IMG/VR virus record: IMGVR_UViG_3300028581_000010
Strand: one strand, 5' to 3'
Length of the DNA stretch: 64,000 nt
From: a virus
Lineage: Duplodnaviria > Caudoviricetes
This document shows positions 45,296 to 52,260 of this stretch, one piece after another. Below the pieces are notes generated by a model that was given only the letters and a program-made list of their open reading frames with translations, was not told the DNA's origin and did no database searches. Positions within the stretch are counted from its first letter, which is position 1. Each line of letters begins with the position of its first letter. Position numbers and translations under genes: made by a program.

Positions 45296-45300
45296 AGTTT

Positions 45301-45390
45301 TGGCGGAGACAAAGAGCGTTGAACTCTTAGTAGTCTTTAGCTACGGCGCTTTAGCAAAGCGCTACGAAAAACCGATATTCGTGTCGTCTC
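45301..45390 (-). tRNA. tRNA-Ser(GCU)
   Basis: GGAGACG/TGTCTCC-G-CCA, loop TT-GCT-AA and a long variable arm. Confidence 0.92.
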
Positions 45391-45413
45391 CAAGTTATTT
45401 GATACTGGAAAAA

Positions 45414-45488
45414 TACCCCAATCGAGGCTCGAACTCGAAGTCTCCAGGTTGAAAACCTAGCGTGTTAGACCAGTTACACTATTGGGGC
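45414..45488 (-). tRNA. tRNA-Glu(UUC)
   Basis: GCCCCAA/TTGGGGT-A and loop TT-TTC-AA. No encoded CCA. Confidence 0.92.
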
Positions 45489-45496
45489 AAAAGCTT

Positions 45497-45613
45497 CCTA
45501 CCGATTACTACGAAGGCGCCGATCAAGTTTGGACCTCTCTCGACATTGCCTTCCTGTTATTGTATTGGGCGAGCTACACATACTCAGTGTAACGGCCACA
45601 GGCGGATGGTAGG
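45497..45613 (-). ncRNA. unassigned ~117-nt structured RNA
   Basis: Closing stem CCTACC/GGTAGG, CGCC/GGCG and hairpin GTTACAC/GTGTAGC. Confidence 0.45.
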
Positions 45614-45640
45614 TTTACAACCGTGAACCAAAGTGTAGTA

Positions 45641-45762
45641 TGAGCGCGGCAGGATTTGAACCTGCATGACTAGCGACTGTTAGTGAATCCCAATATATAG
45701 CTAATACTATATACCCGTCTTTGTCTTATTATTTAGCGTCTTTACATTCCGCCACGCCGCTC
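45641..45762 (-). ncRNA. tRNA-like RNA with Leu-type D- and T-arms but an expanded non-canonical anticodon region
   Basis: TGGCGGAATGTAAAGACGC D-arm, GCAGG-TTCAAAT-CCTGC T-arm, GAGCG/CGCTC-A acceptor and a ~65-nt insert. Confidence 0.7.
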
Positions 45763-45786
45763 AAACTAACCACAGCAAAAATGTTT

Positions 45787-45892
45787 TGGCGGGGCTTCCG
45801 GTAGGGGCTTGGTAATCTCTAGCAACTTAAACCAATGATCCCCGCTTTACCGATGCTACGACCCGAAGCACTCGTGCTGGCCATGCCACGCC
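45787..45892 (-). ncRNA. unassigned ~106-nt rod-like RNA ending in CCA
   Basis: GGCG/CGCC, GCTTC/GAAGC, CGGTA/TACCG, GGGG/CCCC and TGGT/ACCA nested helices. Confidence 0.5.
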
Positions 45893-45909
45893 ACCAAATA
45901 ACTAAAAAG

Positions 45910-46430
45910 TTGTTGACCAAGATTAAAAGGTCCTGTTTACCCACGACAGGACAGGCTTCGGCTCCTTTCGGATAATGGCGCTATTTCCGCCTTACGCCTT
46001 GTCAGCAGGAGCCTAGGCTCCTGAGATTCTTACAAACATAAACTGATGAAACACCTCGATTTGACATACCTATACACCCGGAAGCGCCATAAGAGATTAC
46101 TCCGACCACTGGTGGCCGGTTGTATAACTCACACCTGCGTACAGGTGTACTTTGCAACTGGCGCAGTGTTACCTACGCCAGCTCTTTAAGCTTAGCTATG
46201 GACTTTAAATGAGCCTTCCTTACTTATACCTTGCAACCATAACGGATATGAGCCTTACTACCTTGCGAACTTGAGCCTTCAGCCTTGAGACATAGCACTC
46301 TGATGAGTGATATACCATAGGTTTGATACACGCTGAGAAAGCATGTTAGGTTTACAATTCCATGTAAGTTTCATATTGTCGATTATGAGTTCGCCAGATG
46401 AAAGCCACAAGGGCCTCCTCTAGTCTTTTC
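45910..46430 (-). ncRNA. candidate large (~500 nt) multi-hairpin ncRNA
   Basis: No ORF of 60 aa or more. It has at least five clean hairpins, an 8-bp long-range helix and repeated AAGG motifs. Boundaries are approximate. Confidence 0.55.
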
Positions 46431-46433
46431 TCT

Positions 46434-46605
46434 AACTGATTACGGATATGTCAAATCGAACTGTTTCAAATTGTGCAGGGCTATGTCCCTGCTGGGAGGT
46501 CTGTCGGCCTCATCCAAGGGGTTCTCTCCCCCTGTCAACTCTGGTATTAGCAGGTCTTGAGTTTTCCCTGTTTTAAACTGAGAACGACTACATGCCTGAT
46601 CAGTT
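46434..46605 (-). ncRNA. 6S-RNA-like 172-nt rod with a central bubble
   Basis: AACTGAT/ATCAGTT, ATGT/ACAT, AGTCG/CGATT, CAGGG/CCCTG, then a bubble, then CCTGCT/AGCAGG and an apical AGGGG/CCCCT. Confidence 0.55.
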
Positions 46606-46613
46606 TGAAAGTC

Positions 46614-46701
46614 TGCGCGAGGCGGGACTCGAACCCGCATGCTACTGTTATTTCGCGTCCGCCTCTAAAACGGAATTGTCTACCAATTTCAACACCCGCG
46701 C
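46614..46701 (-). tRNA. tRNA-Leu(UAG)
   Basis: GCGCGGG/CTCGCGC-A, loop TT-TAG-AG and a long variable arm. No encoded CCA. Confidence 0.92.
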
Positions 46702-47385
46702 GTTTAAACTTATACCATAACTCCTACACCATTTTCTAACTGCGTTATCAGAAACTCCGAAGGTTTTCCCTATCTGCACAAAAGATGCCGTACGTATGAG
46801 CCGTTGCAATTCGTCTTTCTCCGGGCGCACAACTTTGCGAAAGCTTGGTTTTGGTTTAGTTCTCCAGTGCGGATCTCCTTTTATTTTCTCCTTTTTAGTC
46901 CTTGTCGGCTTGGGAGGCATTTTCTGTTCGCGTCTGTCAACCAGCCTACGCCTAGTCTCCATAGCATGACAGTTAGGGCAAAGAAGCTGTAAGTTCTCTA
47001 GTCGGTTATCGAAGTGGTCAGAATTTATATGATCCAACTCCAAAATAGCGGGAGCACCTTGCCAGTCAGTTAAGCCGCATAGTTCGCATTCTTGCTTTTT
47101 GAACCCTTCCTTAATAAGCCTCTTTTTAATGTAGTTGCTATTGCATGGTGAGTTGGCCACCAGATATTTCTCTATAGGCTGCTTAGGTGGGAAAGTTTTA
47201 CCCTTATTCCAAGCTTTGCCAGTAAAGTGAGTGGTCGGCAAGTCATAAGCTTTAGCAACTTTTGCAATATAGCTTTGGGCGCCTGTCCGAGAAGATACTT
47301 CTAATTTTCGACATACCTCTGCCCACGAGCGGCACTGTTCGACAATAGGCCCCAATAATTGCTTTGTGTATTTGGTTCTTAGCAT
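46648..47385 (-). CDS. HNH endonuclease within the tRNA/ncRNA island
   Basis: CELCG..LELDHINSDHFDNRLENLQLLCPNCH and a C-terminal HTH (IGKTFGVSDNAVRKW). Confidence 0.9.
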   Translation of the reverse strand: MLRTKYTKQLLGPIVEQCRSWAEVCRKLEVSSRTGAQSYIAKVAKAYDLPTTHFTGKAWNKGKTFPPKQPIEKYLVANSPCNSNYIKKRLIKEGFKKQECELCGLTDWQGAPAILELDHINSDHFDNRLENLQLLCPNCHAMETRRRLVDRREQKMPPKPTRTKKEKIKGDPHWRTKPKPSFRKVVRPEKDELQRLIRTASFVQIGKTFGVSDNAVRKWCRSYGISLNARVLKLVDNSVLEADAK

Positions 47386-47393
47386 ACGCATAT

Positions 47394-47423
47394 ATCTTAA
47401 GGCAAGTGCGTATGCCAAGTCAA
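47394..47423 (-). promoter_or_regulatory. sigma70-like promoter TTGACT-N18-TAAGAT for the HNH gene
   Basis: The ATG at 47385 lies 8 nt after the -10. Confidence 0.5.
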
Positions 47424-47437
47424 CTAGATATGTAAAG

Positions 47438-47613
47438 TTTTCCTACGAGTGGGATATGATCCCACACTCCGCGCATGTACCGGTGAACGCGGGTGCTATT
47501 TATCGGACTCGACCACTTCGGAAGCGATCCGTCGTGCGCCCAATGCCTCGCCCTGTGTGTCTAGAAACACAGCAGTTGCCCATATTAATTTTGGGTTACA
47601 CTATCGTAGAAAA
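47438..47613 (-). ncRNA. unassigned ~175-nt multi-stem junction RNA
   Basis: Closing stem TTTTCTACGA/TCGTAG(G)AAAA enclosing about five hairpins, e.g. GTGGGATCATATCCCAC and CCGCG/CGCGG. Confidence 0.5.
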
Positions 47614-47621
47614 GTTAAAGA

Positions 47622-47655
47622 GATGGGGACGCCGTGGTTTTGCGGCGCCCCCATC
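47622..47655 (-). terminator. strong GC hairpin (terminator or processing stem)
   Basis: GATGGGGGCGCCG-CAAAACCA-CGGCGTCCCCATC followed by TCTTTAACTTTT. Confidence 0.55.
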
Positions 47656-47851
47656 CTGATGTTACCAGGCCAACTTTTTGTGGACAGGATGCCAAGCCTG
47701 CTTTACGAGATTCATCGAACAAGGTGATTTAGGCCTGTTCGATGCACTCACCACCCCCGCAGAAAAACGGCCCACACCCTCAAGCGCCACTCAACCTCCA
47801 GGCCTAGGAAGGAGGTATGGTTGTGACTCTGTTTTGTAATGTGGGACCAAA

Positions 47852-48271
47852 TGGTGGAGGTAGCGGGAGTCGAACCCGCGTGTTCAATACTTCTCTAACA
47901 CCTCTACGTGCGTAGTTTGATATTATTTTCGACTGTGGTCTGCTATCAAACAAACGGTGCCACAGCTTAGGCAGACCCGTCTGCCAGGGTGCGGATTACC
48001 GCCATCTTTTACCACGATTGACGCCGAGCGCTTTTCTTCACTCAGCCAGGTTACGTGACATCCTGAGTTCGATGACTGTTACAGTCCGCTTACGCGGCGA
48101 GCAGTTCGCGATCAACGCTCCCGAAGGAGGCGATCATCGCGTCAGCTTCTGCAACCGTCATTGCTTGATCCATAGGATTAGCATTTAGTTTTTGTTAGCT
48201 TTCAAGGTGCCCCGCTAACGAACCCACACGCAGTGCTTCAATACATATTGAGTCGAAGCCAGTATACCCCC
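47852..48271 (-). ncRNA. ssrA: tmRNA (420 nt), tag ANPMDQAMTVAEADAMIASFGSVDRELLAA*
   Basis: 5' GGGGGTA..GGCTTCGAC and 3' GCGGGTTCGACTCCCGC-TACCTCC-A-CCA with G3.U70. Resume codon GCT at 48182 follows AAAAACTAAAT, and the tag ORF ends in AA*. Confidence 0.95.
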
Positions 48272-51383: not shown

Positions 51384-52260
51384 TTACTTCTGGTGTTAGG
51401 TTTACAGGTGAGCATAAATCAGTCTGCAGGAATGTCAAGCCTACAAACAGCGTATGCAGATTGGAGTTCTCCAAACTGGCCCCTGCGTCGTATTGATCGT
51501 ATTGTGCAGGTTCCACTGTTATACCGTCAATTATATTAATATTCGTGCCGGCTACAAGCGAAAACTTGTTGTCAGCGGCAGGAGGTATGCCGTTAATGTA
51601 GGATACGATCTGGGCACAGTCCTTTAGCGCGTCTGCTATGAACGAGGTAGTACAACTTAGCTTCAAACCCAAGCCGGCTGCAGCCTGTAGGTCTATAAGG
51701 TTGCCAGATATACCTATTCTGAAGTTATAACCTGCGCGCACACGCACATTTCCAGTCAGCGGTGGTGTATCAGTAGTTTGTAGCCCCAACATGCTCAATG
51801 TCTTAGGGGCATAACCAACAGAGTCGTACGTTGCGATTGCGGGGGATATATCTATCGAGCTGACGCCCAGCCACTCGTTACAAAACTCAAATACCGTGCA
51901 GGGCTCTACCGGAATAGCGTATGTATAAGTCCCAGCCGTAAACGCCTTGGCCCCCTCTCCGATTACAGCCAGGCTACCGGACTCCAAGCGTATATAGGCA
52001 GGATAGGCCTCCGCGGCGGTATCTGCTATGTGGAACTGGTCTCCGGTAGAAAAGGTCACCACGAGGCTCCTAGGAGCCATAACGGCCACTTCTGTAAGCG
52101 TGGTTGCCTGCGTTAGTGGTGAGGAGCTCACCAGAACCAGGTCTAGTAGGAAATTATCCGGCAGGGCGGTAGCGGGGCTGCTGGTCGACCACTTGCTTGC
52201 CTCCTCTAACAGGGGGTAGCCACGCAGCGCGTTCTCGTTAAGCCATTCTAGTACTTCCAT
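51376..52260 (-). CDS. tail/baseplate-associated paralogue 5
   Basis: N-terminal EWLNENALRGYPL and later INGIPPAADNKFSL. Confidence 0.7.
   Translation of the reverse strand: MEVLEWLNENALRGYPLLEEASKWSTSSPATALPDNFLLDLVLVSSSPLTQATTLTEVAVMAPRSLVVTFSTGDQFHIADTAAEAYPAYIRLESGSLAVIGEGAKAFTAGTYTYAIPVEPCTVFEFCNEWLGVSSIDISPAIATYDSVGYAPKTLSMLGLQTTDTPPLTGNVRVRAGYNFRIGISGNLIDLQAAAGLGLKLSCTTSFIADALKDCAQIVSYINGIPPAADNKFSLVAGTNINIIDGITVEPAQYDQYDAGASLENSNLHTLFVGLTFLQTDLCSPVNLTPEVNA

What the first reader, a model, noticed from the sequence alone, without database searches (positions are those of the whole stretch)
45910..46430. Candidate ~500-nt large structured RNA (GOLLD/ROOL-like niche) with a repeated AAGG module
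Seen: hairpins at 45931-45951, 45963-45972 (GAAA loop), 46006-46023 (perfect 18-bp palindrome), 46102-46119, 46131-46148 and 46158-46181, plus an 8-bp long-range helix (45975-45982 with 46083-46090). The 5' half has AAGGCTCA x3 (46210, 46249, 46272) and GCAAGGTA x2 (46227, 46259), with seven AAGG in about 75 nt. Known: GOLLD and ROOL are large ncRNAs found beside phage tRNAs. Inference: a new or divergent large RNA with a multivalent protein-binding (sponge) or oligomerisation segment.
Basis: partly seen in the sequence, partly recalled or inferred. Interest (0 to 1): 0.75.

Follow-up and report, generated by a model that had tools for sequence, protein, structure and literature searches.

The report
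Orphan stalk-closed RNA candidate in phage tRNA island
A 215-kb lake-water phage carries, between two tRNA genes, a gene-free stretch that probably makes a roughly 420-base folded RNA with a long closing stem and a cluster of AAGG repeats, but it matches no known RNA family, no relative was found, and no expression data exist, so its function is unproven.

Summary
The unit is drawn differently, however.

**What stands out statistically**
- **Closing stem:** a 22-nt inverted repeat (46047-46068 / 46447-46468) forms a 23-bp stem around a 422-nt element.
- **Fold of the element:** on the minus strand the z-score is -5.4. Coding controls average -1.25 (minimum -3.14) and the phage's own tmRNA scores -3.56.
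- **AAGG module:** AAGGCUCA x3 and GCAAGGUA x2. No 8-mer reached three copies in 2000 shuffles.

**What does not hold up**
- The 3' flank 45770-45991 folds no better than shuffles.

**Family and relatives**
- Rfam 15 gives no GOLLD, ROOL, OLE, HEARO, 6S or intron match, even at E<=10.
- No homolog turned up in the phage, IMG/VR, metagenome or GTDB searches, so covariation cannot be tested.
- The nearest flanking-protein relative is only 66% identical, and all public copies are 100% identical.
- No RNA sequencing run is listed.

**Best reading (about 45%):** a new stable RNA processed out of the tRNA/tmRNA transcript.

**Side lead:** the same heptamer, AAGGCTC, forms dispersed tandem arrays in a family of Bacteroidales genomes. 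The first one found is a lake MAG.

The parts
46047..46468 (-). Element D: the best-defined unit, a 422-nt candidate RNA closed by a terminal stem
   Evidence: MFE -143.4 kcal/mol, z = -5.42 on the minus strand and -4.87 on the plus strand. 25 coding control windows: mean -1.25, sd 1.07, minimum -3.14. tmRNA control: -3.56.
46445..46468 (-).
   Evidence: Inverted repeat I1. Duplex of 23 pairs with one G.G mismatch and two U.G wobbles: -32.5 kcal/mol on the minus strand, -28.0 on the plus strand.
46047..46070 (-). 3' arm of the closing stem
   Evidence: Only 1 of 2000 shuffles of the gap reaches this inverted-repeat score.
46203..46291 (-). AAGG module: a degenerate heptamer-like array with AAGGCUCA x3 and GCAAGGUA x2. 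AAG starts are spaced 7, 7, 8, 8, 24, 7, 4 and 4 nt apart.
   Evidence: The 8-nt blocks are identical while the spacers differ (5 vs 14 nt). Unique among 1.75 Mb of loci. The thermodynamic model pairs much of it with 46356-46399.
46156..46183 (-). Hairpin of 11 bp with loop GUAACA
   Evidence: Present in the MFE, centroid and MEA structures.
46131..46148 (-). Hairpin of 7 bp with a UACG loop. It competes with the long-range pairing 46142-46150 / 46072-46080.
46102..46119 (-). Hairpin of 7 bp (one G.U pair) with loop CCAG
45992..46041 (-). Interrupted hairpin just 3' of element D. Its tip is the perfect 18-nt palindrome 46006-46023, with the self-complementary loop CUAG.
   Evidence: z = -2.07.
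45919..45952 (-). 7-bp hairpin with a 9-nt loop, followed by CUUUUAAUCUU. This is a weak terminator-like site and a possible 3' end of the transcript.
   Evidence: Read from the sequence. One search did not report a terminator-like site here (its scan allows loops of 3-8 nt only).
46614..46701 (-). tRNA-Leu(UAG), the upstream boundary of the ORF-free gap
45641..45766 (-). tRNA-like element with a long insert, the downstream boundary of the gap
   Evidence: Weak Rfam tRNA match at 45641-45716 (16 bits). T-arm-like repeat D1. Not called by ARAGORN.

Best explanation
Window 46047-46468 (minus strand) most likely encodes a new, stand-alone structured RNA of about 420 nt that belongs to the phage's tRNA/tmRNA transcription unit.

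Proposed mechanism:
- The island is transcribed on the minus strand together with tRNA-Leu(UAG).
- The 23-bp stem formed by the element's two ends works like the processing stalks of rRNA precursors. It is either a double-strand-specific (RNase III-type) cutting site that releases the RNA, or a terminal helix that protects its ends.
- The inner part shows several copies of AAGGCUCA and GCAAGGUA, which could serve as repeated binding sites for a protein or another RNA.

Shown here: absence of ORFs, the strand context, the stem, the excess fold stability, and the repeat statistics.

Inferred only: transcription, processing, and any binding or sponge role.
For: - It lies in the largest ORF-free gap of a window that is 93.5% covered by ORFs of 75 aa or more.
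- All neighbouring tRNAs, the tmRNA and the genes are on the minus strand.
- The 22-nt inverted repeat is 91% complementary. Only 1 of 2000 shuffles reaches its score.
- Strand asymmetry fits an RNA. The stem has two U.G wobbles on the minus strand that become A.C mismatches on the plus strand (-32.5 vs -28.0 kcal/mol). The core scores z = -3.0 on the minus strand and -1.3 on the plus strand.
- Whole-element z = -5.4, against coding controls of -1.25 +/- 1.07 and the real tmRNA at -3.56.
- The 8-nt blocks are repeated exactly while the spacers between them differ. They fall in different reading frames of the only small ORF that covers them (my reading of the sequence).
- Contigs from two further samples show no length or sequence change in the module.
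- There is precedent. T4 makes RNA C and RNA D from its tRNA region (PMC3014915), and GOLLD and ROOL lie near phage tRNA islands (10.1101/2024.12.08.627333).
Against: - No homolog was found anywhere, so there is no covariation.
- Most of the excess stability comes from the stem alone. The core z of -3.0 is within the tail of the coding controls (minimum -3.14).
- The plus strand also scores z = -4.9.
- The thermodynamic model pairs much of the AAGG module, so a single-stranded sponge is not predicted.
- The module could be a decayed simple-sequence repeat.
Confidence: 0.45

Rival explanations
1. The stretch is non-functional spacer DNA. On this view the AAGG module is a decayed heptamer simple-sequence repeat made by replication slippage. 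The inverted repeat is a relic of a recombination or mobile-element event near the HNH homing endonuclease gene. The hairpins are incidental.
For: - AAG starts are spaced 7, 7, 8 and 8 nt apart, and AAGGCUG AAGGCUC are adjacent, as in a degenerate tandem heptamer.
- The same heptamer forms simple tandem arrays in unrelated genomes and phage contigs.
- An HNH endonuclease gene lies about 180 nt upstream of the stem's 5' arm.
- The core fold is not outside the coding-control range.
- There is no detectable conservation.
Against: - Large phages seldom keep 840 nt of useless DNA. The rest of the window is 93.5% ORF-covered.
- The blocks are identical while their spacers differ, which is not what uniform decay would give.
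- Independent samples show no length polymorphism.
- The inverted-repeat arms occur nowhere else in the window, IMG/VR or GTDB genomes, and I see no target-site duplication at their ends.
- Tandem Repeats Finder reports no array here.
Confidence: 0.25
2. There is no single large RNA. Instead the gap holds several independent short elements: processing hairpins, a terminator, and small RNAs released between tRNAs by RNase P, RNase Z or RNase E.
For: - The gap splits into parts of very different quality: 46469-46610 z = -1.9, element D -5.4, hairpin 45992-46046 -2.1, and 45770-45991 +0.7.
- Three simple local hairpins stand in a row at 46102-46183.
- A terminator-like hairpin with a U-tract lies at 45919-45952.
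Against: The 23-bp stem joins sequences 378 nt apart and is the most significant single feature. Independent short RNAs would not need it.
Confidence: 0.15
3. It is a DNA-level element, such as a replication origin or regulatory region. The repeated TGAGCCTT and TACCTTGC would be protein-binding iterons, and the palindrome and inverted repeat would be operator or cruciform sites.
For: - There are direct repeats of two 8-mers plus a perfect 18-bp palindrome.
- GC content is locally lower, 42-44% against about 50%.
- Cumulative GC skew reaches its window minimum at 48-52 kb, near the island.
Against: - Repeat spacings (39, 23, 32 nt) do not follow the helical repeat.
- There is no strand switch of genes here.
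- The U.G-versus-A.C asymmetry of the stem, and the better minus-strand core fold, favour an RNA.
- The palindrome has no second copy.
Confidence: 0.08
4. It is a very divergent member of GOLLD or ROOL that the Rfam models cannot recognise.
For: It occupies the same niche, beside phage tRNAs in a lake-derived phage (10.1101/2024.12.08.627333).
Against: - No match to either model even at E<=10 with relaxed filters on 1.7 kb.
- The element is 422 nt, whereas many GOLLD RNAs exceed 800 nt (same preprint).
- No related locus carries GOLLD or ROOL either.
Confidence: 0.03

Closest known systems
GOLLD and ROOL large ornate RNAs of phages and prophages
   Same: All are large non-coding RNAs of unknown function encoded beside phage tRNA islands. 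GOLLD was first seen partly in lake metagenomes (10.1101/2024.12.08.627333).
   Different: There is no sequence or structure match to either Rfam model. This element is smaller (422 nt) and simpler in predicted architecture, with no covariation support. Its oligomeric state is unknown.
Phage T4 RNA C and RNA D (small stable RNAs from the T4 tRNA region)
   Same: They are non-tRNA RNAs encoded inside a phage tRNA cluster, presumably released by the same precursor processing, and their role is unknown (PMC3014915).
   Different: From memory, the T4 species are much shorter (about 120-140 nt). No sequence relation was tested or is expected.
rRNA-precursor processing stalks and other RNase III substrates
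   Same: A stem of more than 20 bp is formed by sequences flanking a several-hundred-nt RNA. From general knowledge, that length fits a double-strand-specific nuclease.
   Different: Cleavage has not been shown. The stem could instead be a protective terminal helix, as in 6S, SRP or RNase P RNAs.
Dispersed heptamer direct-repeat arrays of bacteria (TAACTGA repeats of Beggiatoaceae, Cyanobacteria and Bacteroidetes)
   Same: The module is built on a 7-8-nt period. Its unit, AAGGCTC, is the unit of dispersed intergenic tandem arrays in a Bacteroidales family. Such arrays have been proposed as binding sites for post-transcriptional regulators such as S1, Csp or CsrA (PMC4679880).
   Different: In the phage only two units are directly adjacent, and those differ by one base. 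The rest are degenerate and interrupted, embedded in a stem-closed element. No host link beyond the shared unit was found.
Protein-sponge RNAs such as CsrB and RsmZ
   Same: They carry many copies of a short purine-rich motif in one RNA.
   Different: From memory, CsrA sites carry GGA in hairpin loops. Only one of the seven AAGG motifs here contains GGA, and the motifs are not predicted to sit in loops.

Membership tests
GOLLD RNA | Match to the family covariance model (conserved 3' domain) | tested here: not met
   No match at the gathering score on the whole window, nor at E<=10 on 45300-47000, both strands.
GOLLD RNA | Location beside tRNA genes of a phage or prophage | tested here: met
   tRNA-Leu lies 146 nt upstream of the stem. 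A tRNA-like element, tRNA-Glu and the tmRNA are nearby, all on the same strand.
GOLLD / ROOL | RNA-only homo-oligomeric cage | not testable with these tools
   Needs a native gel, SEC-MALS or cryo-EM of the transcript.
ROOL RNA | Match to the family covariance model | tested here: not met
   no match.
OLE RNA | Match to the family covariance model | tested here: not met
   no match.
HEARO / IscB omega-RNA (HNH endonuclease-associated RNA) | Match to the covariance model, and adjacency to a large HNH+RuvC (IscB-type) ORF | tested here: not met
   No Rfam match. The neighbouring HNH protein is a homing-type endonuclease of about 250 aa with an HNH domain only, and a tRNA gene separates it from the element.
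6S, Y RNA, RNase P RNA, SRP RNA, group I/II introns | Match to the respective covariance models | tested here: not met
   One search lists every match up to E = 10: only tRNAs and a 16-bit CRISPR-repeat chance match.
Stable non-tRNA RNAs of phage tRNA operons (T4 RNA C/D type) | Encoded within the tRNA cluster on the same strand | tested here: met
Stable non-tRNA RNAs of phage tRNA operons (T4 RNA C/D type) | Accumulates as a discrete stable transcript | not testable with these tools
   No RNA run is available.
Miniature inverted-repeat transposable element | Terminal inverted repeats | tested here: met
   22-nt arms, 91% complementary.
Miniature inverted-repeat transposable element | Several copies, and a target-site duplication | tested here: not met
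   The arm sequence occurs only at these two places in the window. It is found in no IMG/VR contig and no GTDB genome. The flanks (..ACTGA | .. | AATTG..) show no duplication (read).
Heptamer simple-sequence repeat array | Head-to-tail copies of one 7-nt unit | tested here: inconclusive
   AAGGCUG AAGGCUC are adjacent, followed by degenerate units at 7-8-nt spacing. Tandem Repeats Finder reports nothing.

The most novel reading that the evidence does not exclude
The phage makes a stem-closed RNA of about 420 nt that displays a degenerate array of the heptamer AAGGCUC. The same heptamer is scattered in tandem arrays through the genomes of a Bacteroidales family whose first-found member is a lake MAG. 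The RNA would act as a decoy or sponge for the still unknown host factor that recognises those arrays. If true, this would give dispersed bacterial heptamer repeats a trans-acting partner, and would predict the host of an unstudied jumbo-phage lineage.
Probability: 0.1. Interest if true: 0.75.

Novelty: new variant of a known kind. Interest (0 to 1): 0.4.

Why it matters
Large structured RNAs in phage tRNA islands, such as GOLLD, ROOL and T4 RNA C/D, are a small and poorly understood group. A further unrelated example, from a 215-kb uncultured lake phage, would widen that group and give a compact target for structure and processing studies.

The shared AAGGCTC heptamer offers a concrete but unproven lead. 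It could point to both a host lineage and a function for dispersed heptamer repeats.

For now this is a single-sequence prediction without conservation or expression data, so its value is as a candidate rather than a result.

Tried and rejected
**Known RNA families**
- Rfam 15 at gathering score and at E<=10: no family other than tRNA and tmRNA.
- Rfam on relatives' loci: no GOLLD or ROOL either.

**Homolog searches, all empty**
- GenBank phages by blastn at E 1e-5 and at E 5.
- blastn, nhmmer and tblastx against 161-168 syntenic loci from IMG/VR and metagenomes.
- Whole records of four related phages.
- A covariance model of the three-hairpin domain 46071-46190 over 1.42 Mb: only itself.
- Exact-pattern scans for the palindrome, the stem arm and the three-block motif in IMG/VR and GTDB genomes. 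The palindrome hit L081 was a chance match.

**Closer relatives via flanking proteins**
- The DenV-like protein's next relatives are at most 66% identical.
- The 181-aa and 114-aa neighbours have no IMG/VR relatives.
- All contigs carrying the same protein are 100% identical to the window.

**Sequencing runs**
- Twelve lake-water DNA runs hold the stretch, and no RNA holder is listed.
- Contigs from four runs showed no differences, so microdiversity gave no covariation.

**Other checks**
- No paralogs elsewhere in the island.
- No shared promoter-like motif in intergenic gaps.
- A scan for long stem-closed elements in relatives found only an unrelated repeat family.
- Host test: no CRISPR-spacer-like match of the first 60 kb of the window in the 29 genomes of the AAGGCTC-array family. 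The only matches were tRNA-Leu at 76-81% identity and a ClpX Walker-A stretch.
- The seven IMG/VR contigs with (AAGGCTC)3 are unrelated to this phage.

**Considered from the sequence and dropped**
- Shine-Dalgarno mimic: the motifs lack GGAGG, and this phage's genes show almost no SD.
- CsrA sites: only one GGA among the motifs.
- Type III antitoxin repeats: no regular tandem unit.
- Retron or DGR RNA: no reverse transcriptase nearby.
- RNase P or SRP RNA: a few short look-alike strings, but no model match.
- A 32-aa ORF over the module: the repeats fall in different frames.

Full report
**Context**

The window is part of a lake-water phage genome of about 215 kb.
- It is gene-dense, almost entirely on the minus strand.
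- It carries a family-A DNA polymerase, an HNH endonuclease, a YqeY-like protein and a T4 endonuclease-V-like protein.
- It has five tRNA genes and a tmRNA.
- Its polymerase is only about 25% identical to any isolated phage.
- Genes show almost no Shine-Dalgarno motif upstream.
- The finding lies in the largest ORF-free gap of the window: 45296-46647, 1352 nt, while the next gaps are 517 nt or less and 93.5% of the window is covered by ORFs of 75 aa or more.
- Within this gap, tRNA-Leu(UAG) at 46614-46701 and a tRNA-like element at 45641-45766 bracket 841 nt with no known feature.

**Checking the observation**

Every coordinate in the finding is exact.
- Hairpin 45930-45952.
- UCC-GAAA-GGA at 45963-45972, with only three pairs.
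- Perfect 18-nt palindrome at 46006-46023.
- Hairpins at 46102-46119, 46131-46148 (UACG loop) and 46158-46181.
- AAGGCTCA three times and GCAAGGTA twice on the minus strand.
- Seven AAGG within 73 nt.

The repeat cluster is far beyond chance.
- In 2000 dinucleotide shuffles of the gap, no 8-mer reached three copies within 100 nt.
- A density of seven AAGG per 90 nt occurs nowhere else in 1.75 Mb of related phage DNA.
- The two 8-nt blocks are identical between units, while the spacers between them differ completely (5 vs 14 nt).
- They fall in different frames of the only small ORF that covers them, so a peptide repeat does not explain them.

The strongest feature is an inverted repeat.
- The arms are 46047-46068 and 46447-46468: 22 nt, 91% complementary, 378 nt apart.
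- On the minus strand it extends to 23 pairs with one G.G mismatch and two U.G wobbles, at -32.5 kcal/mol.
- On the plus strand the wobbles become A.C mismatches, at -28.0 kcal/mol.
- Only 1 of 2000 shuffles reaches its score.

It closes a 422-nt element, called D here.
- Fold z-score is -5.4 on the minus strand.
- Twenty-five coding windows of the same length average -1.25 (sd 1.07, minimum -3.14), and the phage's own tmRNA scores -3.56.
- Without the stem, the core scores -3.0 on the minus strand and -1.3 on the plus strand. That favours the minus strand but is only at the edge of the control range.

- That 3' flank has two local exceptions: the palindromic hairpin at 45992-46041 (z = -2.1) and a 7-bp hairpin followed by CUUUUAAUCUU at 45919-45952, which could be a weak terminator.
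- The proposed 8-bp long-range helix 45975-45982 / 46083-46090 is expected about twice by chance in 500 nt (my estimate). It would have to cross the stem as a pseudoknot.

**Known families**

- Rfam 15 finds only the tRNAs and the tmRNA at gathering scores.
- On 45300-47000, at E<=10 with relaxed filters, it adds only a weak tRNA-like hit at 45641-45716 and a 16-bit CRISPR-repeat chance hit.
- GOLLD, ROOL, OLE, HEARO, 6S, Y RNA, RNase P, SRP and intron models therefore do not match.
- The neighbouring HNH protein is a homing-type enzyme of about 250 aa, not an IscB.

**Search for relatives**

This was the main effort, and it failed throughout.
- There was no nucleotide match in 50,697 GenBank phage records.
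- The flanking endonuclease-V-like protein has hundreds of relatives, but the closest are 63-66% identical.
- Their loci, 168 in all, share nothing with the gap by blastn, nhmmer or tblastx. Neither do four whole related phage records.
- Two other flanking proteins have no IMG/VR relatives at all.
- Every public contig that carries the same protein is 100% identical to the window.
- Twelve lake-water DNA runs hold the stretch, and contigs from four of them show no difference.
- A covariance model of the three-hairpin domain found only itself in 1.42 Mb.
- Exact-pattern scans for the stem arm found nothing in IMG/VR or in 185,579 GTDB genomes.

Transcription could not be evaluated either.

**An unexpected lead**

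A scan of GTDB genomes for the three-block motif gave one hit, in a lake MAG labelled Porphyromonadaceae bacterium PowLak16_MAG2. The contig is otherwise unrelated to the window.
- The hit is a tandem heptamer array of (AAGGCTC)n with variants such as AAGGCGC and AAGGTAC.
- That genome has 191 matches to (AAGGNNN)3AAGG, against none for the reversed control.
- The arrays are intergenic, lie in both orientations, often start at a TAA stop codon, and sometimes occur as inverted pairs.
- (AAGGCTC)2 occurs in 16 of the 29 species genomes of its GTDB family, about eleven of them with six or more hits.
- (AAGGCTC)3 occurs in only 1 of 201 genomes sampled across the order, and that one is the MAG itself.

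The phage module has AAG starts spaced 7, 7, 8, 8, 24, 7, 4 and 4 nt apart, and it contains AAGGCUG AAGGCUC side by side. It therefore reads as a degenerate array of the same unit. Dispersed heptamer repeats are known in a few lineages, including Bacteroidetes, and have been proposed as sites for post-transcriptional regulators (PMC4679880).

This lead cuts both ways.
- It suggests a decoy function and a Bacteroidales host, which fits the lack of Shine-Dalgarno motifs.
- It also offers a neutral origin, as a decayed slippage repeat.

Nothing further supports the host link.
- The first 60 kb of the window has no spacer-like match in the 29 family genomes. The only matches are tRNA-Leu at 76-81% identity and a ClpX Walker-A stretch.
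- Seven unrelated IMG/VR contigs of varied GC content also carry (AAGGCTC)3, so the unit is not exclusive to that family.

**Verdict**

The unit is 46047-46468 plus a short 3' tail, not 45910-46430.

The best-supported reading (about 45%) is a new stable RNA of the phage's tRNA/tmRNA operon. It would be released or protected by its 23-bp terminal stem and would carry a repeated AAGGCUCA / GCAAGGUA module. Its niche resembles that of T4 RNA C/D (PMC3014915) and of GOLLD and ROOL (10.1101/2024.12.08.627333), but it is not a member of any described family.

The rivals are:
- decayed spacer DNA (about 25%);
- several separate short elements (about 15%);
- a DNA-level origin or operator region (about 8%);
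- an unrecognisably divergent GOLLD or ROOL (about 3%).

With one sequence, no conservation and no expression data, this is a reasonable candidate of moderate interest, not an established RNA.

Noticed in passing
window 45641-45766 (-): tRNA-like element with a good T-arm and acceptor ends but a long insert in place of a normal anticodon arm. It gets only a 16-bit Rfam tRNA match and is not called by ARAGORN.
   Followed up: partly
window 46648-47418 (-): The HNH homing-endonuclease ORF ends inside the tRNA-Leu(UAG) gene (46614-46701), overlapping it by 54 nt. Public gene calls start it at 47385 or 47391 (245 or 247 aa).
   Followed up: partly
window 47852-48271 (-): Phage-encoded tmRNA with an unusually long 30-residue tag ending in LAA. 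Related phages carry standard or permuted tmRNAs in their tRNA islands (L005, L095, L166).
   Followed up: no
window 47420-47851 (-): A second ORF-free stretch between the tmRNA and the HNH gene also folds well (z = -3.95). It holds a 14-bp GC-rich terminator-like hairpin at 47621-47656.
   Followed up: partly
window, 34 gene starts: Almost no Shine-Dalgarno motif upstream of start codons, where the sequence is A-rich instead. This fits a host with SD-independent initiation, such as Bacteroidota.
   Followed up: partly
G005 (MAG Porphyromonadaceae bacterium PowLak16_MAG2) and its GTDB family; L175 4339-4380, L176, L180, L181, L184: Dispersed intergenic tandem arrays of the heptamer AAGGCTC. 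There are 191 pattern matches in one genome. The arrays occur in 16 of 29 family genomes, and in only 1 of 201 genomes sampled across the order. Some form inverted pairs.
   Followed up: partly
L192 12561-12658, L193 6884-6932: Two AT-rich IMG/VR phage contigs carry (GGCTCT)n directly followed by 14 or 7 copies of AAGGCTC, with the same downstream flank.
   Followed up: no
L051 131-963, L069 782-1607, L065 117-957, L047 606-1205, L055 129-691, L044 3775-4594: A group of distantly related phage contigs shares 28-31-bp inverted repeats (GTATTGTACGCGATCTTGTTGTGACTGCAGC) 530-800 nt apart, with extra internal copies of the core. The enclosed DNA contains ORFs.
   Followed up: partly
window 52065-52078: The palindrome GGCTCCTAGGAGCC uses the same two hexamers as the 46006-46023 palindrome (GGAGCC-TA-GGCTCC) in swapped order.
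   Followed up: no
window 46469-46610 (-): The stretch between tRNA-Leu and the stem folds only marginally better than shuffles (z = -1.9 on both strands), and it has no 6S match in Rfam. Another note's 6S-like rod (46434-46605) overlaps the 5' arm of the stem.
   Followed up: partly
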